Shown piece by piece: positions 19,372 through 37,460 of a DNA stretch of 64,000 nt. This DNA comes from Patescibacteria group bacterium (lineage in GTDB: Bacteria > Patescibacteriota > UBA1384 > XYA2-FULL-43-10 > 1-14-0-10-43-13), in the NCBI GenBank assembly GCA_041671645.1, contig JBAZBD010000001.1, positions 607,234 to 671,233 on the forward strand, given 5' to 3'. Every line of letters starts with the position of its first letter. Within the stretch, counting starts at the first letter, position 1. Position numbers and translations under genes: made by a program. The notes below the pieces were generated by a model. That model saw only the letters and a list, made by a program, of their open reading frames with translations, was not told the DNA's origin and did not search any database.

Positions 19372-19408
19372 AAAAAAAATCCCCCCGATGTTGTCGGGGG
19401 GATTTTTG
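19372..19408. terminator. Bidirectional Rho-independent terminator (GNAT gene and rplO convergent)
   Basis: A8 run, then ATCCCCCCGA tgttg TCGGGGGGAT (perfect 10-bp stem), then TTTTTG. Confidence 0.8.
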
Positions 19409-19415
19409 TGAGTAC

Positions 19416-19922
19416 TTATTTGGTTTCTGTCTTCTTGACTGTTTTCTTAGGAGCCTTTGGAGCGGCTGGAGTCTTTTCTACCTTTGGAGCTTTCTCTTCA
19501 GCAACTTCGGCTTTGGCAACTTTTTTTGCCGGAATTTTGACTGATTTGGAGACTTTGACTTCTTTTGAGAATTCAACTGACTTGGTGAGCTCACCATTGT
19601 TTAGAATCTTGGCAGCTTCGAATATTCGGATCATGCCCTTCTCAACCAGCAATTTGTGAGTAACTGTCTCGCCATCTTTGAAAGCGGCAGAAATCTGGTC
19701 GAGAGAAATAACAATTGGTTTGCGCTTGTGGGAGGTGAATCCTGGAAGCTTTGGCAATCTCATTGAAAGTGGAGTCTGACCACCCTCAAATCTCTTTGGC
19801 AGGTTAAAACCACTGCGTGATCTCTGTCCTTTGGTACCGCGACCGGCGGTCTTACCCTGACCAGCTGCGATTCCGCGACCGACGCGTTGTTTTGTTTTAG
19901 ATTTTGTGGAAATTAGGTTCAT
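19416..19922 (-). CDS. rplO: 50S ribosomal protein L15 with a Lys/Ala/Pro-rich C-terminal extension
   Basis: 168 aa. KQRVGRGIAAGQGKTAGRGTKGQRSRSG is the uL15 signature. The C-terminal roughly 45 aa are low complexity. Confidence 0.95.
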   Translation of the reverse strand: MNLISTKSKTKQRVGRGIAAGQGKTAGRGTKGQRSRSGFNLPKRFEGGQTPLSMRLPKLPGFTSHKRKPIVISLDQISAAFKDGETVTHKLLVEKGMIRIFEAAKILNNGELTKSVEFSKEVKVSKSVKIPAKKVAKAEVAEEKAPKVEKTPAAPKAPKKTVKKTETK

Positions 19923-19931
19923 TATAACTTT

Positions 19932-20621
19932 CTATTTCATGCTTTTCTTAGCGGCTTTTTTGGTGGTTTTCTTGACGGCTTTTTTCTCTTCCTCAACTGG
20001 GGCTTCGGCAACGACTTCTAGAGGTTTGATTTTGACGTCCTGAGCTTCGATAAGTTTCTTCTTGGCTTCGCTTCTATCAGTAATGATCTTGGTATATGAA
20101 GCGTCAAAAGATGAGAAAGCCTTGAGTGTTGCCATGACGTTGTTCAATTTGTTTGGACTGCCCATCATTTTGGAAAGAAGATCTGTGATGCCAGCAAGCT
20201 CTGCAACTGCGCGAACGCTTCCACCAGCAACAATTGAAGTACCAGAGGTGGCTGGGCGAAGCATGACAACTGCTGAAGCGAATTTGGTAGTCATTTCGTA
20301 AGGAATTGTACCATTGATAATTGGTACGATAATCATATCTTTTTTGGCCGCAACAACTGCTTTTTTGACAGCTTCAGAAACATCATTGGCCTTGCCGATA
20401 CCGGCGCCAACTTTGCCCTTCTTGTTGCCAATTACAACCAAAGCGCGGAAACGAATACGTCGTCCGCCTTTGACGGTACGAGCGACTCTGCGCACTTCAA
20501 TAACTCGCTCTTCGAACTCAGAATCTCTTTTCTCACCCTCGTATTTGCGAGGACGCATGAAATTCTTTGTCGCACGAGCTGGTTGGTTGGCTGCATCCAA
20601 ATTTGTAGTATTATCTACCAT
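19932..20621 (-). CDS. rpsE: 30S ribosomal protein S5 with N- and C-terminal extensions
   Basis: 229 aa. ERVIEVRRVARTVKGGRRIRFRALVVIGNKKGKVGAGIGKANDV is the uS5 core. It directly abuts rplO, with no rpmD/L30 gene between them. Confidence 0.95.
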   Translation of the reverse strand: MVDNTTNLDAANQPARATKNFMRPRKYEGEKRDSEFEERVIEVRRVARTVKGGRRIRFRALVVIGNKKGKVGAGIGKANDVSEAVKKAVVAAKKDMIIVPIINGTIPYEMTTKFASAVVMLRPATSGTSIVAGGSVRAVAELAGITDLLSKMMGSPNKLNNVMATLKAFSSFDASYTKIITDRSEAKKKLIEAQDVKIKPLEVVAEAPVEEEKKAVKKTTKKAAKKSMK

Positions 20622-30696: not shown

Positions 30697-32772
30697 TTAT
30701 TTCTTGCGCTTTTCGATGATCGTCTGTGCGACGTTGTTTGGAACCTCTGCATAGTGATCAAATTCCATCACTGCGGCCGCTCGTCCCTGTGACATTGAGC
30801 GTAAGCTGGTGGTATATCCAAACATTGAAGCGAGAGGAACAAATGCGTTGATGAGCTTGATACCGTTTGGTCTGTCTTCCATCTTGTTGATTTGACCACG
30901 TTTGGCGTTCAAGTCCCCGATAACATCGCCCATGAAGTCTTCAGGGGTAGTTACTTCAACTTTCATGACAGGCTCGAGCAATACTGGCTTGGCTTTCTTG
31001 AAACCGTCCTGGAAGGCCATAGAAGCGGCGATTTTGAAGGCAACCTCAGAAGAGTCAACTTCATGGTAAGAACCGTCATATACCTCTGCTGTGACGTCAA
31101 CAACTGGGTAACCAGCAATAACACCACGGCCCATAGCTTCCTTGATACCCTCTTCGATCGGTTTGATATATTCACGAGGGATAGCGCCACCAACGATAGA
31201 GTTGATGAAGACAAATCCTGCACCCTGCTCAGAAGGCTTGAGTCTGAGCCAGCAGTGACCATATTGACCACGACCACCGGTCTGACGAATGTATTTACCC
31301 TCTTGAGTGACTTCCTCACGAATAGTTTCGCGGAAAGCTACCTGTGGAGCACCGACATTGGCTTCGACTTTGAACTCGCGTTTCATACGATCTACGATGA
31401 TCTCGAGGTGAAGTTCGCCCATACCAGCGATAATCGTCTGAGAAGTTTCCTCATCAGTTCGAACACGGAAGGTAGGGTCTTCCTCGGCCAATCTCTGTAG
31501 AGCGATACCCATTTTTTCCTGATCAGCTTTGGTCTTTGGCTCAATCGCAATATCGATAACTGGCTCTGGGAAGGTAATCTTCTCGAGAATTACAGGGGAT
31601 GTGAGATCGCAAAGCGTGTCACCAGTAGTTGTATTAGAAAGTCCGACAGCGGCAGCGATTTCACCAGCGTAGACTGTGTCTACTTCCTCACGGTGATTGG
31701 CATGAAGTCGGACGATTCGGCCGATTCTCTCTTTGTTGCCAGTAGTAGAGTTTAGAATATATGAACCCTTGGTCAAAATACCGCGATAAAGGCGGAAGAA
31801 GATCAATTTACCAACAAATGGGTCAGTTGCGACCTTGAAAGCAAGTGCGGCAAATGGCTCGTTGTCGACTGGATTAACGTCAACTTCTGCATCAGTCTTG
31901 GGGTCAATACCACGTGCTGGTGGAACATCGAGAGGAGAAGGAAGATAGGCTACGATTGCATCAAGCAAGGAAACTGCGATGACACCGCGTCCGTCGCCAC
32001 CCAATACTGGGTAGAATTGGCCAGAGATACAAGCTTTACGAATAAGTATTTTCAGCTCTTCGTTTGAGATTGATTCGCCGCCAAGATATTTCTCCATGAG
32101 CGCGTCATCATACTCAACAACTTTCTCAACCAGCTTCTCGCGCCACTCATTGGCCTTGTCTACCATATCAGCTGGGATCTCAACTTCTTCGAGCTTGTGA
32201 TCTTTGTAATCCTTGTAAGTGTAGGCTTTCATGTCGACGAGATCGACGATACCGTTGATCGCCTGCTCAAATCCGATTGGGATCTGAATTGGTGAGGCAT
32301 TCTTGGAAAGGCGAAGGTGCATAGACTCGAGTGAGCGATAGAAGTCGCCACCGGTTTGATTGATCTTGTTGATGAAGCACATACGAGGAACGTTGTACTT
32401 GTCGGCTTGGCGCCAGACAGTCTCAGACTGTGGCTCTACGCCCATCTTGCCATCGAAGATGACTACTGCACCGTCGAGTACACGAAGAGAACGCTCAACC
32501 TCTACAGTGAAGTCTACGTGGCCTGGAGTATCGATAATATTGATGCGGTGATCTTTCCAAAAACAGGTGGTAGCAGCTGAGGTGATGGTAATACCACGCT
32601 CACGCTCTTGCTCCATCCAGTCCATGGTCGCAGCACCTTCATGAACCTCGCCGATCTTGTGGACGCGGCCGGTGGTGTACAAAATACCCTCAGTGACGGT
32701 GGTCTTGCCAGCGTCAATGTGAGCGATTGTACCAATATTTCGAACTCGGTCTAGTGTGTAGTCTCTTGCCAT
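30697..32772 (-). CDS. fusA: Elongation factor G
   Basis: 691 aa. [21 protein letters not shown]. All five EF-G domains are present. Confidence 0.97.
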
Positions 32773-32993
32773 AAATTTCCTAAGTAATTCTTAATTTTTA
32801 TTCGTTAATTTTTATTCAAATTCAAATTTGTAATTCTAAATTAATAATTGATTAGAAATTAATAATTAGGAACTAAAAATTTGATTGCCCTAGCAATCTA
32901 AAATTTTCCCCATTTCCGTTCAATATTAACACAATTATTCCCAAAGTGTCAATCGTGATTGAACGTGCCACAAATAGGCCATAAACGACAATT

Positions 32994-33017
32994 CCCTCAC
33001 CCGCTGTGGGGTGAGGG
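32994..33017. terminator. Hairpin CCCTCACCC-gctgt-GGGGTGAGGG downstream of the 33037..33366 gene
   Basis: 9-bp perfect GC-rich stem with a weak U-tract on the minus strand. Confidence 0.4.
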
Positions 33018-33036
33018 ACTGCAATCCTTATGGGGA

Positions 33037-33366
33037 CTATTGGTTCACGGTTTCGACCGTGATTTCGGTGACCGTCGTGGTCACCACTTTTCTGAATCTC
33101 AGCACGGTGACGGGGGGAAGCTCCGGCTCTGGTCTCTTCGAGACGGGCCGAATCATCGCCATTCGTGCTGCGACGGCCTTTGCCCGAACCTCGGGCTGGA
33201 GAATCTCACTGTACTGGGTGGCGAGATCCAAGATCTGCGCCTTTGCAGCACGTGTCTTCATCGACACAAGCAATTGAATAAGTTCAATCGCCTCGTCGAC
33301 CCCTCCGGGTTTTGACCCTTTTACTACGATTTGGCCAGCAATCTCGCTAGCCGTCTGCTTCTGCAT
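33037..33366 (-). CDS. Hypothetical protein, GC-rich gene (start refined)
   Basis: Start at MQKQTASEIAGQ..., with GGAGG 9 nt upstream. The track's longer start at 33423 would run into the shared promoter. 109 aa with no recognised domain. GC is about 55%. Confidence 0.5.
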   Translation of the reverse strand: MQKQTASEIAGQIVVKGSKPGGVDEAIELIQLLVSMKTRAAKAQILDLATQYSEILQPEVRAKAVAARMAMIRPVSKRPEPELPPVTVLRFRKVVTTTVTEITVETVNQ

Positions 33367-33413
33367 TTTCTGCATCCTCCGTTTTGTATTACCGCTATGC
33401 TTGCGGTAGACCA

Positions 33414-33460
33414 ATTCTAGCACAAATCACCTTGACATGTCAAGGGAAAAGGAGTATAAT
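33414..33460. promoter_or_regulatory. Divergent promoter pair sharing the palindromic -35 TTGACATGTCAA
   Basis: Plus strand: TTGACA at 33432-33437, a 17-nt spacer, TATAAT at 33455-33460. Minus strand: TTGACA (reverse complement of 33438-33443), an 18-nt spacer, TAGAAT (reverse complement of 33414-33419). Confidence 0.5.
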
Positions 33461-33519
33461 ATTAATTATCCAAAGAGCAGTTCGTGCTTGGAGGAAGATT
33501 TCTAAAGGAGGTAACGCTC

Positions 33520-33996
33520 ATGCGTTACACATTAATAATCCTGGCCATCGTGGCTATTATCCTTCTGAGTGGGTGTTCTGGCCTACAGGCTAAGTTCCCA
33601 CGGATCGAAAGGGTCCGCATGGACCGACCCTCGTCCTCCTTTATCGTTGTGACCAATAGGGCAGACGGCTATGTAAATGCCGAATGCTACTATCTGGTCG
33701 ACCATCTTGGCCAGCCAACGTCCAACGCGGCTGGTACGAAACATGTCGTTTTCACGACAAATCAGGTCAAAGTGATCGGGTTTGATCGTGAAAGAGGTCA
33801 GGCAATATTTGTCGTGACATCAGGCTATTGGGACTCGCTCCCCACAGCGGTCCCTGTTTATGTGGCGGCCCAGTATTCAAACTGGGTCTGGGATTATTCC
33901 CACCCGCAAAACAATGATCCTTCGACGTATGACGCCAGCACCTCTGGCTTGTTCCGATTTGATGTCGGAGCAACCGAGGGTGTCTCGGTATATTAG
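33520..33996 (+). CDS. Hypothetical lipoprotein, GC-rich gene
   Basis: AAGGAGGT lies 8 nt before the ATG at 33520. MRYTLIILAIVAIILLSGCSG is a signal peptide with the lipobox LSGC. 158 aa mature protein, rich in aromatics and Asn, with no known domain. Confidence 0.6.
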   Translation: MRYTLIILAIVAIILLSGCSGLQAKFPRIERVRMDRPSSSFIVVTNRADGYVNAECYYLVDHLGQPTSNAAGTKHVVFTTNQVKVIGFDRERGQAIFVVTSGYWDSLPTAVPVYVAAQYSNWVWDYSHPQNNDPSTYDASTSGLFRFDVGATEGVSVY

Positions 33997-34017
33997 ACCC
34001 AATTTAATTGGGATCAG

Positions 34018-34080
34018 GCAGATAACAGGAAGTTATCTGCACTGAAAAATGATCTTCTCTAGCAGGAGATCATTTTTTAT
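34018..34080 (+). terminator. Tandem hairpins ending in a T-run (Rho-independent terminator of the lipoprotein gene)
   Basis: GCAGATAAC-agga-aGTTATCTGC, then AAAAATGATCTtCT..AGgAGATCATTTTTT. Confidence 0.6.
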
Positions 34081-34130
34081 TTACACAATTCAACCACGCA
34101 ATTGAATTATTCATTCAAAACCTATAAATC

Positions 34131-34172
34131 ATGTCTATGATTTTGAAACGATCGTTTCTTATTCTTAGACAG
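34131..34172. repeat. 42-bp direct repeat copy 1 (contains the perfect palindrome GAAACGATCGTTTC), overlapping the 3' end of the PaaX-like gene
   Basis: ATGTCTATGATTTTGAAACGATCGTTTCTTATTCTTAGACAG. About 40 of 42 positions are identical to the copy at 34748-34789. It contains an internal TGTCTA...TAGACA inverted repeat. Confidence 0.8.
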
Positions 34173-34719
34173 ACTTTGAGAGAATTCCAAGTATTGATTT
34201 GTTGATACTGCTTTGCTCTGCGATGAAGCTCGCAACGTATTCTTCGACTTTGTACTCAATCGATGCCAGCTCAACAAATTCGGCCGCGTCTTTGTCGGTG
34301 ACCCACAAGCTCCTTTGGATTTGTTTGAAACCCATCCGTTTCAGAACCTTACGGAAATTATTTCGGCGAGTGCTCAAATATTCTGGGATATCGAAAGAAA
34401 CAAGTAAGAAACGATCAATTAGCTTGTTATGCTTCACAATTTTGTCGGCCACCTTCAATCTTGCCTTGTTCGTAAAAACGATAGACTCCTGCGCGTCCTG
34501 CCTGATCTCAATATATTTTCGCCTTTTCATGGAGTCAATAAATTTGCAGAAATTCCGATAGGTCAGTGTTGGTTCAGCATAGTAAAGCTGTCTGTAAACT
34601 TCTTTCCGTCCTCCTGCAATGATCAAAAATGACTCGGTTAACCCGAGGACAGAATCCAAAACCCTTTCCAAGGTAAGCGACGCCGCTTGAGCAATATTTT
34701 CTTTTAACTCCTTCTCCAT
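34165..34719 (-). CDS. PaaX-like putative transcriptional regulator (N-terminal wHTH-like region plus C-terminal Cas2-like domain)
   Basis: 184 aa. The C-terminal FLLVSFDIPEYLSTRRNNFRKVLKRMGFKQIQRSLWV follows the Cas2 beta1-alpha1-beta2 pattern (xLVxYDI....RR.KVxKxLxxxGxRxQxSVF). The N-terminal roughly 100 aa (FCKFIDSMKRRKYIEIRQD...SIVFTNKARLKV) look like a winged helix. The domain order matches PaaX. The call was made by eye. Confidence 0.4.
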   Translation of the reverse strand: MEKELKENIAQAASLTLERVLDSVLGLTESFLIIAGGRKEVYRQLYYAEPTLTYRNFCKFIDSMKRRKYIEIRQDAQESIVFTNKARLKVADKIVKHNKLIDRFLLVSFDIPEYLSTRRNNFRKVLKRMGFKQIQRSLWVTDKDAAEFVELASIEYKVEEYVASFIAEQSSINKSILGILSKSV

Positions 34720-34747
34720 ACATTAATCTTATTACGATTTATTATAT

Positions 34748-34789
34748 ATGTCTATGATTTTGAAACGATCGTTTCTTTTTCATAGACAG
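34748..34789. repeat. 42-bp direct repeat copy 2 (palindrome GAAACGATCGTTTC at 34762-34775), between the PaaX-like gene and paralog 1
   Basis: ATGTCTATGATTTTGAAACGATCGTTTCTTTTTCATAGACAG. It lies 12 nt upstream of the -35 of the paralog-1 promoter and 29 nt upstream of the PaaX-like start on the other strand. Confidence 0.8.
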
Positions 34790-34800
34790 TTTGCAAATGA

Positions 34801-34829
34801 TTGCTAATAACGAGCCGATTTGGTATAGC
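34801..34829 (+). promoter_or_regulatory. Sigma70-like promoter TTGCTA-17-TATAGC for paralog 1
   Basis: Part of the duplicated unit GAGCCGATTTGGTATAGCT shared with the paralog-2 upstream region. Confidence 0.4.
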
Positions 34830-34862
34830 TTTATTAAGATCAAACCTCAAAGGAGAAATTTG

Positions 34863-35417
34863 ATGCAAAATTGGATCGAAGAGATAGCCAATAAAATTGG
34901 AGTCGAGTTTTCTCGGCATCCCCTCACTCTATTACTGCTTGACCAGATCAAACTGGTCGAAGAGTCCGATTGTGTACACAAAGACAATCTTCTCGAGACA
35001 TTCGAAGTGTTCGTCTCAGCAGAGCACGACACCGCCTATATGGCGCTTGATTGGCTGGCCGAGGCAAGCGAAGGCGAGTGCAGCGAGCCAGAATGTGTAC
35101 AGCACGCCTCGATAATGTTGGTTGCCATTTTCACCGGAAAGGGAAGTATCCTCAACGTACTGGCTTCAGGCGACAAATGTCTGTATACGATTAAGCACTT
35201 CTACGAAAAAAATCGAAGGAACAAAGAGTTGAAGGCTTTCAACCGCCTGTGTCTTGCCGCTCTCAGACATGCAGGAGTAGACTTCTCCCAATGTCTTGAA
35301 ATAGATGAATCCTCCTGGGGATTTATTAAAATTGCGGAGGCGCACAAATGGATTGTTGATAGTAGTTATTATGACCGTTTCGAAGCGAATACCAAGAAAA
35401 AACCCGAGGGTTCTTAG
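34863..35417 (+). CDS. Hypothetical protein, tandem paralog 1
   Basis: Start at MQNWIEEIANK, with AAAGGAGAAA upstream. 184 aa. It shares conserved blocks with paralog 2 (HPLT..L+DQI..., P.CVQ+AS++L.A+FT.K, LCLA.L.HAGVD.SQC). No family was recognised. Confidence 0.6.
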   Translation: MQNWIEEIANKIGVEFSRHPLTLLLLDQIKLVEESDCVHKDNLLETFEVFVSAEHDTAYMALDWLAEASEGECSEPECVQHASIMLVAIFTGKGSILNVLASGDKCLYTIKHFYEKNRRNKELKAFNRLCLAALRHAGVDFSQCLEIDESSWGFIKIAEAHKWIVDSSYYDRFEANTKKKPEGS

Positions 35418-35452
35418 CAATAGCAAGAATCCTTTTTTATTTCTCTCCAAAA

Positions 35453-35481
35453 TTGCAAACCATGAGCCGATTTGGTATAGC
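35453..35481 (+). promoter_or_regulatory. Sigma70-like promoter TTGCAA-17-TATAGC for paralog 2
   Basis: Same architecture and core sequence as the paralog-1 promoter. Confidence 0.4.
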
Positions 35482-35520
35482 TGTATTAGAGATCAAATCC
35501 ATACAAGAAGGAGGCATCTG

Positions 35521-36069
35521 ATGCCCGGATTGCCTGAATATCTCAAACAGATCAGCACCCCTTTCGCGGAGCATCCGCTCACGAATTTCCTGATTGACCA
35601 GATCGAAATGGCCAATTTGACCAATTTTCCTGGCAAGCACAATTTACTTGCCACTTTCGAAGAGTATGTCCTCGCGAGAGGCTATAATGTTTACCTTGAA
35701 AATTTGGCGAACGACAGCCGCGGCAAAAGAAATCAGCCCAAATGCGTTCAGTACGCCTCGCTGATTCTGACCGCCCTTTTCACCGAGAAGGCAGTCGTAC
35801 TCAATTCGTTTTATCAGGGCAATTCAAGCCTGGACGCGCTTATAGACTTTTACGATGAAAATCGTGAAAATGATCAGCTCAAAGACCTAACCTGGCTATG
35901 TCTTGCCGGACTTGCACACGCAGGCGTCGACCTGTCCCAATGCTATGGCATAGCAAATTGGCAAACGGAGGGTCTGATCGAATCACCGCTCCAGTGGATT
36001 ATCGCCGGAACATATTCCATCCGTCTGGAGGCTAATAAGCAACCAAAACCCGAGGATTCTTCGCAGTAG
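35521..36069 (+). CDS. Hypothetical protein, tandem paralog 2
   Basis: Start at MPGLPEYLKQ, with AAGGAGG upstream. 182 aa. It is a paralog of 34863..35417 and is followed by a similar terminator hairpin. Confidence 0.6.
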   Translation: MPGLPEYLKQISTPFAEHPLTNFLIDQIEMANLTNFPGKHNLLATFEEYVLARGYNVYLENLANDSRGKRNQPKCVQYASLILTALFTEKAVVLNSFYQGNSSLDALIDFYDENRENDQLKDLTWLCLAGLAHAGVDLSQCYGIANWQTEGLIESPLQWIIAGTYSIRLEANKQPKPEDSSQ

Positions 36070-36090
36070 CAGGAATCCTTTTTTAATACC

Positions 36091-36116
36091 AAAAAACGGC
36101 CGAAGCCGTTTTTTGT
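36091..36116. terminator. Bidirectional Rho-independent terminator AAAAAACGGC-cgaa-GCCGTTTTTTG
   Basis: Perfect 8-bp stem with a GNRA-like loop, flanked by an A-run and a T-run. Confidence 0.75.
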
Positions 36117-36205
36117 CTGAAATAGTTGTCTGAGGCCAAAGAAATCAAAATCTTTAATTGCTTTGGTCCCAGTCGATGCTTTGTGCGATCGACCGGATAG
36201 TTTCC

Positions 36206-36850
36206 CTACTCAGGCTCGCTGACCCATAGGCCGCGATTCTGAAGGGAGGTCTTGTAACTGTCGTAGGCTCTGTCAGCGGCCCCTGGAGCGGTGGTGATAT
36301 CGAATGTGTCCCAGATATCACCGGTTTGGGGTAATGCCTTGCATTCCTCGTAAAATGCAGACCTACTCCCCTCTTCGGGGAAAGTGAATTCAATGAACTC
36401 AACCATCCGTGATTTGTCCCCTTCGAACATCCAGCTGCTGAACTTGTTGGTCCAGCAATAGGCTTCGCGGTCGAAGGGTTTCAGCCGCAGGTAGGCTTCA
36501 TACGCTTGCCTTTCGGCAACGTGGCTCAGGTATACCGCCAATTCGTACTGGTCGGTATAACCGTTATACTTTCGGGCCGGATTGTGCTCGGTGTACTGCT
36601 TATCAAGCAAGGCCACCTGGCGGGTGCGCTCGCGATACTCGTCATAGACTCGTATTGCGAAAGAAATCCTTGCCCAATCGGGCGTTTGCGCAGCGATAAT
36701 TTGCTGCGACTTCTGCTGCTCGATGGCAGCTCTGGCTTGTGCTTTTTCAGCACCAACGCGTTGTCCATACTCATAGCACACGCTACCAGTGATGGCGCAA
36801 ATTACAGCCATAATGACCAACTGGCCAAAATGAATTCCTATTCCCTTCAT
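36206..36850 (-). CDS. Hypothetical membrane-anchored protein, GC-rich gene (start refined)
   Basis: Start at MKGIGIHFGQLVIMAVICAITG (AAAGGAGA lies 5 nt upstream). The track's 297-aa form would overlap rpsG. 214 aa with one N-terminal TM helix and no known domain. Confidence 0.55.
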   Translation of the reverse strand: MKGIGIHFGQLVIMAVICAITGSVCYEYGQRVGAEKAQARAAIEQQKSQQIIAAQTPDWARISFAIRVYDEYRERTRQVALLDKQYTEHNPARKYNGYTDQYELAVYLSHVAERQAYEAYLRLKPFDREAYCWTNKFSSWMFEGDKSRMVEFIEFTFPEEGSRSAFYEECKALPQTGDIWDTFDITTAPGAADRAYDSYKTSLQNRGLWVSEPE

Positions 36851-36983
36851 TACTGTCTCCTTTTTCGCATTTCGCGGGATAGATGTACTTATATTACTAC
36901 ATTTTGTCCTATTTGTCAATGGTAAATACAAAAATGGCTCCGGGTGAGCGGAGTCATTTTCTATATTCTGTGAATCTATTTGA

Positions 36984-37460
36984 TTAGAATCTGGCGAAGT
37001 GGGCGAAAGCCTTGTTGGCCTCGGCCATTCTGTGAGTATCTTCCTTCTTCTTGATCGCGTTACCTTCACCTTTGAAGGCGTTGATGATCTCAGAAGCAAG
37101 CTTCTCGTTCATAGGGCGACCCTTCTGGCTGCGAGCTGCGGCGATAACCCAGCGCATAGCGAGAGTATTTCGTCTGTCCTTGCTAACTTCCATAGGCACC
37201 TGGTAGTTTGCGCCACCGATACGTTTGGATTTGACCTCGACGATTGGACCAACATTTTTGATCGCCTGATCGAAGATTTCCATCGGATCGAGCTTGAGCT
37301 GTTCGCTAGCTTTCTCAAAAGCCATGTAGACGATTCTCTCGGCGATGGTCTTCTTGCCGTTGACCATAATGTAATTGATGAGCTTGGCGATCACCGGGCT
37401 GTTAAATTTAACATCCACACCGATCGAGCTCTTTCTGATTTTGACGTGACCTCTTGGCAT
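36984..37460 (-). CDS. rpsG: 30S ribosomal protein S7
   Basis: 158 aa. MPRGHVKIRKSSIGVDVKFNSPVIAKLINYIMVNGKK is a canonical uS7. Confidence 0.95.
   Translation of the reverse strand: MPRGHVKIRKSSIGVDVKFNSPVIAKLINYIMVNGKKTIAERIVYMAFEKASEQLKLDPMEIFDQAIKNVGPIVEVKSKRIGGANYQVPMEVSKDRRNTLAMRWVIAAARSQKGRPMNEKLASEIINAFKGEGNAIKKKEDTHRMAEANKAFAHFARF

What the first reader, a model, noticed from the sequence alone, without database searches (positions are those of the whole stretch)
34131..34789. PaaX-like (wHTH + Cas2-like) gene bracketed by 42-bp direct repeats carrying a perfect 14-bp palindrome
Two near-identical 42-bp elements (ATGTCTATGATTTTGAAACGATCGTTTCTT[A/T]TTC[T/A]TAGACAG) lie at the 3' end (34131-34172) and 29 nt upstream (34748-34789) of the 184-aa gene. 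The gene's C-terminus follows the Cas2/VapD fold pattern and its N-terminus looks like a winged helix. Each element contains the palindrome GAAACGATCGTTTC nested in a TGTCTA/TAGACA inverted repeat. The upstream copy sits between the regulator's start and the -35 of the divergent paralog-1 promoter. That is an ideal operator position for autoregulation and co-regulation of the paralogs. The alternative reading is footprints of a small mobile cassette.
Basis: partly seen in the sequence, partly recalled or inferred. Interest (0 to 1): 0.7.

Follow-up and report, generated by a model that had tools for sequence, protein, structure and literature searches.

The report
Mini PaaX-like repressor flanked by own operators
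A small DNA-binding protein of an uncultivated Patescibacteria bacterium, wrongly labelled Cas2 in databases, has a copy of its own probable 40-bp palindromic binding site at each end of its gene, and about twenty relatives share this compact layout, which I found described nowhere.

Summary
Two 42-nt elements (34131-34172 and 34748-34789) are 40/42 identical. Each is a 40-bp imperfect palindrome, TGTCTA-N28-TAGACA, around a perfect GAAACGATCGTTTC core. They bracket a 184-aa gene (34165-34719, minus strand) and occur nowhere else in the 64-kb window.

In 18 of 19 homologous Patescibacteria loci the gene is flanked by two palindromes centred on CGATCG (GATC in L023). In 17 of them the two are copies of one locus-specific sequence. 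Against a 76%-identical orthologue the elements are 38-39/42 identical, while third codon positions are 42% identical and the outer flanks are unrelated.

The gene-proximal arm supplies the -35 hexamer of a promoter that sits 6 nt before the ATG (TAGACA-17-TAAGAT). The 40-bp span matches the published PaaX operator, TGATTC-N27-GAATCA.

Best reading: these are cognate operators of an autorepressor. The upstream site occludes its own promoter. The role of the 3' site is unresolved (looping, roadblock, or a recombination end).

It is not a REP element, not CRISPR, and not phage- or plasmid-borne. Co-regulation of the neighbouring paralogues has no comparative support; the only close orthologue has a different neighbour there.

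The parts
34748..34789 (.). Upstream copy of the 42-nt element: a 40-bp imperfect palindrome TGTCTA-N28-TAGACA with core GAAACGATCGTTTC at 34762-34775. Proposed primary operator; it overlaps the regulator's -35.
   Evidence: It is 39/42 identical to the orthologous copy in L002.
34131..34172 (.). Downstream copy of the 42-nt element, with core at 34145-34158. It overlaps the last two codons and the TAA stop of the gene. Proposed second operator.
   Evidence: It is 38/42 identical to the orthologous copy in L002.
34165..34719 (-). 184-aa gene encoding an N-terminal winged helix (about residues 36-82) plus a Cas2-like / PaaX_M domain (about residues 100-170, with the invariant SFDIPE Asp110). 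There is no PaaX_C domain.
34749..34754 (-). -35-like hexamer TAGACA. It is the outer block of the gene-proximal arm of the upstream palindrome.
34726..34731 (-). -10-like hexamer TAAGAT. It lies 17 nt after the -35 and 6 nt before the ATG, which implies a leaderless or near-leaderless mRNA (inference).
34045..34077 (.). Terminator-like hairpin (14-nt arms, 5-nt loop, T runs on both sides) between the downstream palindrome and the convergent lipoprotein gene. It shows that the palindrome is not needed as the terminator here.
   Evidence: (I10), by inspection. The terminator scan did not list it.
34800..34836 (+). Context only. A promoter-like block (TTGCTA-17-TGgTATAGC) of divergent paralogue 1, repeated at 86% identity upstream of paralogue 2 (35452-35488), where no palindrome is present.
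   Evidence: (D4), by inspection. The scan did not flag it.

Best explanation
The gene encodes a minimal PaaX-type DNA-binding protein: a winged helix followed by a Cas2-like dimerisation domain, without the C-terminal ligand domain of PaaX. I propose that it binds as a dimer to the two 40-bp palindromes that flank its own gene.

In this model the recognition helices contact the outer 6-bp blocks (TGTCTA / TAGACA, about 28 bp apart). The dyad CGATCG lies under the Cas2-like core or the wings.

The upstream site includes the -35 hexamer of the gene's own promoter (TAGACA-17 nt-TAAGAT-6 nt-ATG). Binding there would therefore shut off transcription, giving negative autoregulation.

The second site overlaps the stop codon and is an integral part of the module. 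The most likely roles are co-operation with the upstream site through a loop of about 0.6 kb that encloses the gene, or a protein roadblock that insulates this self-contained unit from neighbouring transcription.

Shown here: the repeats, their family-wide association with the gene, their conservation, the domain architecture, and the overlap with promoter-like hexamers. Inferred: dimeric binding, repression, the leaderless start, and the role of the 3' site.

For: 2. The gene and its palindromes travel together. In 18 of 19 distinct loci a CGATCG- or GATC-centred 34-48-bp palindrome lies at each end of the gene, 577-720 bp apart, and in 17 of them the two are cognate copies of one sequence. 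Across 256.5 kb of locus sequence, 27 of 30 such palindromes lie within 150 nt of a family gene end. The other 3 are cognate extra copies.

3. Specificity is encoded in cis. Paralogues in one genome carry different arms with no cross-sites. This holds for three paralogues in GCA_023484645.1, and for L007 versus L010 and L011 versus L012.

4. Purifying selection acts on both copies. Against the 76% orthologue they are 39/42 and 38/42 identical. The CDS is 69.5% identical, third codon positions 42%, and the outside flanks 8/40 and 10/26. The blastn homology block is exactly 34131-34792.

5. Promoter overlap. The scan finds TAGACA-17-TAAGAT at 34754..34726. Nine loci share the same layout: a -35-like hexamer in the proximal arm and a -10 ending 6-7 nt before the start codon.

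6. The symmetry pattern fits a double-stranded protein site. Palindromy is strongest at the centre and at positions 14-19 from it. The mismatches in between are mostly A.A, and G.T mismatches are not enriched over A.C.

7. The published E. coli PaaX site is TGATTC-N27-GAATCA, spanning 39 bp, and PaaX represses its own promoter by steric hindrance (PMC9493321).
Against: No binding experiment exists, and no model of the dimer on DNA was made.

A 3' operator has no obvious target in the window. The next gene is convergent, and a separate terminator follows.

Conservation of the 3' site within 13-84 nt of the stop codon (224 nt only in L015, where the gene is truncated), and of its direct-repeat orientation, would equally suit the ends of a mobile unit.

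The Cas2 catalytic Asp is invariant in the family, which a pure repressor would not need.

Loop phasing shows no clear 10.5-bp periodicity, judged by hand from the spacings.

I found no simple correspondence between recognition-helix sequence and outer block.

Half of the loci have a Shine-Dalgarno leader and a different promoter placement.
Confidence: 0.6

Rival explanations
1. The two palindromes are the ends of a tiny (about 0.66 kb) mobile or excisable cassette. The wHTH-Cas2-like protein, with its Cas2 metal-binding Asp intact, acts on them as a nuclease or recombination factor. Recombination or cleavage at the CGATCG dyads would excise or insert the gene.
For: Homology with the orthologous locus starts and stops exactly at the outer ends of the palindromes, and the flanks are unrelated.

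The module sits at different places in otherwise syntenic genomes: after mfd in L016 and after dus in L018. L016 keeps a solo cognate palindrome right after dus.

Modules interrupt conserved operons (rpsG|fusA in the window; mfd|dprA in L016). One lies beside tRNA genes (L003) and one inside a T4SS/integrase-bearing region (L022).

Genomes carry 2-3 paralogues. Extra sites in L012 and L020 delimit neighbouring genes like a cassette array. Asp110 is invariant and aligns with the Cas2 catalytic Asp.
Against: No two near-identical copies occur in any genome. The paralogues carry different arm sequences, so there is no sign of recent transposition.

Both sites are under long-term purifying selection, and the upstream one is built into the promoter.

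No transposase, integrase or Cas1 is adjacent in the window. No target-site duplication lies outside the palindromes (by inspection).

No relatives occur in viral contigs, phage records or plasmid records.

The solo site in L016 matches the sites flanking L016's own gene rather than those of L018. This fits a trans-acting binding site that co-evolves with its protein.
Confidence: 0.17
2. The palindromes act as nucleic-acid hairpins independently of the protein. They would be RNA stem-loops serving as terminators or mRNA-stabilising ends, or DNA cruciforms, and would be merely linked to the gene.
For: Many copies are perfect 34-48-nt palindromes that would fold stably. The 3' copy lies where a terminator is expected. 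In L024 it is the only element between convergent genes.
Against: The arms are specific to each paralogue and are shared by the two ends of one gene, which points to a cis-encoded specificity partner.

If the predicted promoter is right, the upstream copy is not transcribed from it.

G.T mismatches are not favoured over A.C, and runs of 4 A.A mismatches are tolerated in mid-arm.

No consistent T-run follows the hairpin. The window has a separate terminator-like hairpin at 34045-34077.
Confidence: 0.06
3. It is a generic REP-like dispersed repeat, or a degenerate CRISPR unit with a bona fide Cas2.
For: The elements have palindromic, repeat-like sequence. NCBI and JGI name the protein Cas2, because TIGR01573 scores 27.1 bits against a cut-off of 24.5.
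Against: There are only two copies in 64 kb, and at most 2-4 in loci of 20 kb, always beside the gene.

The metagenome scan finds the motif only in the orthologue.

The window has no CRISPR array, and the neighbouring ORFs give no Cas hits. The protein is twice the length of Cas2 and carries an N-terminal wHTH. The 'spacer' between the repeats is the gene itself.
Confidence: 0.02

Closest known systems
PaaX, the phenylacetyl-CoA-responsive repressor of the paa catabolon (E. coli W structure 8a39; Pfam PaaX / PaaX_M / PaaX_C; TIGR02277)
   Different: This protein is 184 aa, against about 305-316 aa for PaaX, and has no PaaX_C ligand-binding domain. TIGR02277 scores 13.6 bits against a cut-off of 264.55. 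The neighbouring ORFs gave no paa-family hits. The Cas2-like domain keeps Cas2 sequence motifs, including the catalytic Asp. The whole 40 bp is palindromic, with a near-invariant CGATCG centre. A second operator sits at the 3' end of the gene.
Cas2 (CRISPR adaptation protein; TIGR01573, PF09827)
   Different: It is fused to a wHTH. No cas1 or other cas gene was found among the neighbouring ORFs, and there is no CRISPR array in the window. The flanking repeats enclose the gene itself, not spacers.
Lambda-type repressor genes lying between two operator regions (OR and OL) that co-operate by DNA looping
   Same: A repressor gene is enclosed by cognate operators on both sides. A loop would enclose the gene and tighten autoregulation. 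This comparison rests on my own knowledge and was not tested here.
   Different: The protein family is unrelated. The lambda operators are tripartite, lie 2.4 kb apart, and each controls an outward promoter. Here each side has a single 40-bp site, the sites are 0.6 kb apart, and the 3' site has no evident promoter.
REP / RAYT and IS200/IS605-like minimal elements (a small gene flanked by palindromes)
   Same: A small gene of about 180 aa is bracketed by imperfect palindromes, and the unit is about 0.7 kb.
   Different: There is no HUH or Y1 transposase domain. The repeats are not dispersed, and no identical copies exist. The palindromes are in direct orientation and are centred on a conserved dyad rather than being subterminal hairpins.

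Membership tests
PaaX family regulators | Central Cas2-like domain (Pfam PF20803, PaaX_M) | tested here: met
   48 bits against a cut-off of 24, residues 105-171. All 92 relatives hit it.
PaaX family regulators | N-terminal winged-helix DNA-binding domain | tested here: met
PaaX family regulators | C-terminal helical effector domain (PaaX_C) that binds phenylacetyl-CoA | tested here: not met
   The protein ends at residue 184, and neither it nor any of the 92 relatives hits PaaX_C.
PaaX family regulators | Equivalog-level sequence match (TIGR02277) | tested here: not met
   13.6 bits against a cut-off of 264.55.
PaaX family regulators | Operator with 6-bp inverted repeats about 27 bp apart, overlapping the regulated promoter | tested here: inconclusive
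   The sequence geometry matches: TGTCTA-N28-TAGACA overlaps a -35-like hexamer, compared with TGATTC-N27-GAATCA (PMC9493321). Binding cannot be tested with these tools.
CRISPR Cas2 | Cas2 domain above the curated threshold, with the conserved beta-1 Asp | tested here: met
   TIGR01573 scores 27.1 against 24.5. PF09827 scores 31.1 against 23.8. Asp110 aligns with the Asp of SSO8090 Cas2.
CRISPR Cas2 | Stand-alone protein of about 90-100 aa encoded next to cas1 and a CRISPR array | tested here: not met
   The protein is 184 aa with a wHTH. The five neighbouring ORFs have no PADLOC or NCBIfam Cas hits. TRF finds no array in 64 kb. The rest of the genome was not available.
REP-like dispersed repeats | Many copies scattered in intergenic regions of the genome | tested here: not met
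   There are two copies in 64 kb. In the related loci the copies lie only beside the gene. The metagenome scan found only the orthologous contig. The whole 867-kb contig was not available.
Insertion sequence / transposon | Transposase or recombinase gene, target-site duplication, and multiple near-identical copies | tested here: not met
   No transposase domain was found. No duplication lies outside the palindromes. Paralogues within a genome are divergent and have different ends.
Integron gene cassette (attC) | attC site with R''/R' core sites (RYYYAAC / GTTRRRY), plus a nearby intI | tested here: not met
   By inspection, the element ends are TGTCTA/TAGACA and carry no GTTRRRY core. The ORFs of the island give no integrase hit. 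A genome-wide search for intI was not possible.

The most novel reading that the evidence does not exclude
The module is a minimal self-contained genetic element. Its Cas2-like dimer has its metal-binding Asp pair on the two-fold axis and would sit over the invariant CGATCG dyad, where it would nick or cleave the flanking palindromes. The wHTH arms would measure out the 40-bp site.

The gene would then be excised or inserted together with a duplicated palindromic site. This is formally analogous to repeat duplication during CRISPR spacer integration. It would make the family a living relative of the Cas2 ancestor, working as a sequence-specific DNA ruler and nuclease without Cas1.
Probability: 0.07. 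Interest if true: 0.9.

Novelty: new variant of a known kind. Interest (0 to 1): 0.55.

Why it matters
1. Annotation. Members of this Patescibacteria family are named 'CRISPR-associated endonuclease Cas2' by NCBI and JGI, including this gene and several of the 120 relatives listed. The family has 411 representatives at E <= 1e-10. These proteins are PaaX-like DNA-binding proteins and none of the loci examined showed a CRISPR context, so counting them inflates CRISPR censuses in the candidate phyla radiation.

2. Regulation. The family offers ready-made pairs of a regulator and its site in organisms that cannot be cultured. Each paralogue carries its own 40-bp site at both ends of its gene. This is a natural data set for learning the DNA-recognition code of the wHTH-Cas2-like architecture, and for building orthogonal repressors.

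3. Evolution. The Cas2-like domain here is closer in sequence to Cas2 than to classical PaaX, and it is coupled to a ruler-like 40-bp duplex site. That bears on how Cas2 and PaaX are related.

4. An open problem. The invariable second site at the 3' end of the gene is an unexplained design principle. Looping, insulation and mobility are all open to test with simple in vitro experiments.

Tried and rejected
- Mantel test of protein distance against half-site distance. It is significant (r about 0.55-0.64, p = 0.0002). But it is equally strong for the N- and C-terminal halves and is driven by close pairs, so it says nothing beyond linkage.
- Search for a simple code between the recognition helix and the outer block. 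L003 and L023 share both, but L006 has the same SNICKI helix with a different block. No claim is made.
- Helical phasing of the two sites, worked out by hand from the spacings. There is no convincing 10.5-bp periodicity.
- RNA-hairpin reading. G.U-type mismatches are not enriched, so I rejected it as the main explanation.
- Terminator reading. No consistent T-run follows the palindrome, and the window has a separate terminator-like hairpin.
- Metagenome scan for the window-specific palindrome. It returned only the contig already known (L001 = L021). The window's own genome is evidently not in that collection, so copy number across the whole genome remains unknown.
- Family search in viral contigs, phage records and plasmid records: nothing found.
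- Homology search with paralogue 1: it finds only itself, so there is no comparative evidence for co-regulation.
- Rfam on the window and on L016: only two tRNAs in the window, and nothing at the palindromes or in the non-coding stretch after the L016 solo site.
- tblastn for a gene remnant beside the L016 solo site: none.
- Literature searches for PaaX with Cas2, for Cas2-like with HTH, and for Cas2 with winged helix and Patescibacteria: no description of this family or layout in the searchable library.

Full report
OBSERVATION

The window carries the ribosomal-protein and RNA-polymerase super-operon on the minus strand, identified from the translations and ORF sizes. A region of about 4.2 kb (about 32.8-37.0 kb) lies between rpsG (36984-37460) and fusA (30697-32772).

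Inside this region, the repeat finder reports a 42-nt direct repeat at 34131-34172 and 34748-34789:
- The two copies are 40/42 identical.
- Each copy is itself a 40-bp imperfect palindrome, with 16 of 20 arm positions complementary.
- The layout is TGTCTA-N28-TAGACA around a perfect GAAACGATCGTTTC core.

With up to three mismatches the 40-mer occurs only twice in 64 kb, against none in 100 shuffles. ACGATCGT occurs only in these two elements.

The repeats bracket a 184-aa ORF at 34165-34719 on the minus strand. The downstream copy contains the TAA stop codon. The upstream copy ends 28 nt before the ATG.

THE PROTEIN

Sequence-family hits:
- Pfam: PaaX_M ('PaaX central Cas2-like domain') at 1.3e-12 over residues 105-171, and CRISPR_Cas2 at 2.7e-07.
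- NCBIfam: TIGR01573 (cas2) at 27.1 bits, just above its 24.5 cut-off. This explains why NCBI and JGI call the protein Cas2.
- TIGR02277 (PaaX equivalog): 13.6 bits against a cut-off of 264.55.

The invariant SFDIPE motif aligns its Asp110 with the Cas2 beta-1 Asp. There is no PaaX_C effector domain.

In short, the protein is a 'mini-PaaX': the same architecture as PaaX without the ligand domain, with a Cas2-like half that is closer in sequence to Cas2 than to classical PaaX.

THE FAMILY

A profile search of 1.84 billion representative proteins finds 53 at E <= 1e-30 and 411 at E <= 1e-10. A second search lists 259 proteins at E <= 1e-10. Of the 120 listed nearly all are 170-210 aa (range 163-273), and where a source names the organism it is a Patescibacteria / CPR bacterium or an unclassified MAG. 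No relative was found in viral contigs, phage records or plasmid records.

THE REPEATS ARE A FAMILY-WIDE FEATURE

I collected 19 further distinct loci.

In 18 of them a 34-48-bp palindrome centred on CGATCG (GATC in L023) lies at each end of the gene. In 17 the two are cognate copies of one locus-specific sequence, 74-95% identical where repeat finder paired them. In L014 the two palindromes differ. Centres are 577-720 bp apart.

The one exception is L004/L005. It has an upstream palindrome only, and the contig ends 67 nt after the stop codon.

The arm sequences differ between loci. They also differ between paralogues in one genome, with no cross-sites in 20-kb flanks:
- three paralogues in GCA_023484645.1;
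- two each in the Berkelbacteria MAG PEZW01 and in JBAYVE01.

Over 256.5 kb of locus sequence there are 30 GATC-centred palindromes with at least 15 of 20 arm positions paired. Of these, 27 lie within 150 nt of a family gene end. The remaining 3 are cognate extra copies a few kb away: L012 5436, L016 19383 and L020 7679. This is an enrichment of about 340-fold.

SELECTION ON THE SITES

The closest relative is L001/L002. Its protein is 76% identical and its gene also lies downstream of rpsG. Compared with that locus:

| Region | Identity to L002 |
|---|---|
| Upstream palindrome | 39/42 |
| Downstream palindrome | 38/42 |
| CDS, all positions | 69.5% |
| CDS, third codon positions | 42% |
| 40 nt outside the upstream site | 8/40 |
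| 26 nt outside the downstream site | 10/26 |

The blastn homology block is exactly window 34131-34792. Both sites are therefore under strong purifying selection, and they form the outer limits of the conserved unit.

PROMOTER OVERLAP

On the minus strand the consensus scan finds TAGACA (34754-34749), a 17-nt spacer, then TAAGAT (34731-34726). The -10 ends 6 nt before the ATG. The -35 hexamer is the outer block of the gene-proximal arm of the palindrome.

The same design recurs in 9 of 18 loci: a -35-like hexamer at positions about 10-20 from the palindrome centre, a 16-18-nt spacer, and a TAnnnT hexamer ending 6-7 nt before the start codon. In most loci the centre-to-start distance is 43-56 nt. 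This implies leaderless transcripts, which is an inference.

The remaining loci have a Shine-Dalgarno leader, with the palindrome next to or over the likely promoter.

SHAPE OF THE SITE

Across 17 upstream and 19 downstream copies, complementarity is best at the centre (positions 1-3) and, in the upstream copies, at positions 14-19. Mismatches cluster at positions 5-13. They are mostly A.A, meaning an A-rich tract on the sense strand of both arms. G.T-type mismatches are not enriched over A.C-type: 16 against 12 upstream, and 10 against 17 downstream.

This pattern fits a two-fold symmetric protein that contacts the outer blocks and the dyad of double-stranded DNA. It does not fit an RNA hairpin.

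The published E. coli PaaX site is TGATTC-N27-GAATCA, and PaaX represses its own promoter by steric hindrance (PMC9493321, read). The window element, TGTCTA-N28-TAGACA, has the same geometry.

MECHANISM PROPOSED

A dimer held together by the Cas2-like domains places its two winged helices on the outer blocks, with the dyad CGATCG beneath the core. At the upstream site this occludes the -35 hexamer and gives negative autoregulation.

The 3' site lies 13-84 nt after the stop codon in every locus with an intact gene, and overlaps the stop codon in the window. In the window it cannot be an operator for a downstream gene. The next gene is convergent, and a separate terminator-like hairpin lies at 34045-34077.

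I consider three roles for the 3' site:
- co-operative looping that encloses the gene;
- a roadblock that insulates a self-contained module from surrounding transcription. Where the site covers the stop codon, a bound protein might also stall polymerase before the stop; this is speculation;
- a recombination end.

I cannot choose between them.

THE MOBILE-CASSETTE RIVAL

Several points favour it:
- The homology boundaries are exact.
- The module's position differs between syntenic genomes. L016 has it after mfd and L018 has it after dus, and L016 keeps a solo cognate site right after dus.
- Modules are inserted into conserved operons, beside tRNA genes, and within a T4SS/integrase region.
- The Cas2 Asp is intact.

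Other points count against it:
- There are no near-identical copies in any genome.
- Both sites are under long-term selection, and one is built into the promoter.
- The window region has no transposase, integrase or Cas1.
- There is no target-site duplication.
- The family is absent from phage and plasmid collections.
- The L016 solo site matches the sites flanking L016's own gene rather than those of L018, as expected for a co-evolving binding site in trans.

I give this rival about 0.17.

WHAT IT IS NOT

- Not a REP-like dispersed repeat.
- Not a CRISPR unit. There is no array in the window, no Cas hits among the neighbouring ORFs, and the 'spacer' is the gene itself.
- Not an integron cassette. 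There are no attC core sites, by inspection.

CO-REGULATION OF THE DIVERGENT PARALOGUES

- The operator is centred about 68 bp upstream of the likely paralogue-1 transcription start, outside its core promoter. This is my inspection and the D4 block.
- Paralogue 2 has the same promoter block but no palindrome.
- The 76% orthologue has a different, co-directional upstream neighbour.
- The paralogues are 41% identical to each other and have no detectable relatives elsewhere.

NOVELTY

The domain family is in Pfam, and PaaX operators are known. The library searches found no description of any of the following:
- a CPR-wide mini-PaaX family;
- its systematic mislabelling as Cas2;
- a near-invariant CGATCG dyad with arms specific to each paralogue;
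- the paired sites at both ends of the gene.

I rate it a new variant of a known kind, with interest 0.55. The most novel reading still open is a Cas2-like, dyad-centred nuclease that moves its own gene between duplicated palindromic sites. I give it about 7%.

Noticed in passing
window 32773-36983: The normally contiguous rpsL-rpsG-fusA-tuf (str) operon is split by an island of about 4.2 kb. Besides the regulator, the island holds lineage-specific ORFs with no family hits: a 128-aa ORF (33037-33423, minus strand), a 170-aa putative lipoprotein (33484-33996, plus strand), two 184-aa paralogues (34863-35417 and 35515-36069, plus strand), and a signal-peptide/TM protein of about 249 aa (36206-36955, minus strand). 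fusA must therefore have its own promoter.
   Followed up: partly
window 34800-34836 / 35452-35488 and 35341-35439 / 35987-36085: The two orphan paralogues are 41% identical as proteins. They share a conserved upstream promoter-like block (86% identical, TTGCWA-17-TGGTATAGC) and a conserved 3' hairpin-plus-T-run terminator block. This indicates a tandem duplication of a complete transcription unit. No homologues were found in 5.8 billion proteins.
   Followed up: partly
L016 19364-19402, then 19403-19956: A solo copy of the L016-type palindrome lies 7 nt after the dus stop codon. In the syntenic genome L018 a complete module occupies this place. It is followed by about 570 nt with no ORF, no remnant of the gene (tblastn) and no Rfam hit.
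   Followed up: partly
L015 2862-3574: A degenerate family member. Only the N-terminal wHTH half (residues about 2-90) is detectable, and the ORF stops after 112 aa. Both flanking palindromes persist at the usual spacing of 673 bp, and the downstream one is a perfect 48-mer.
   Followed up: partly
L012 3564-5456 and L020 7660-10634: Extra cognate palindromes delimit neighbouring genes. In L012 they enclose a 452-aa membrane protein. In L020 they enclose a DUF2130 gene plus a 173-aa gene, with two tandem sites 100 nt apart. The result looks like a short array of sites and genes, which could be a local regulon or cassette-like units.
   Followed up: no
L014 2624-2663 and 3201-3240: In this 30%-identical relative the two flanking CGATCG-centred palindromes have different arm sequences. 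It is the only such locus.
   Followed up: no
window, whole: GATC (363 observed against 243 expected) and TCGA (435 against 243) are over-represented. GTAC and CTAG are about two-fold under-represented. CGATCG itself is not avoided (23 against 12).
   Followed up: no
public annotation of window 34165-34719 and relatives: NCBI and JGI name this protein and several relatives 'CRISPR-associated endonuclease Cas2', because TIGR01573 is passed by 2.6 bits. One JGI record calls a relative 'DNA-binding transcriptional regulator PaaX'.
   Followed up: yes
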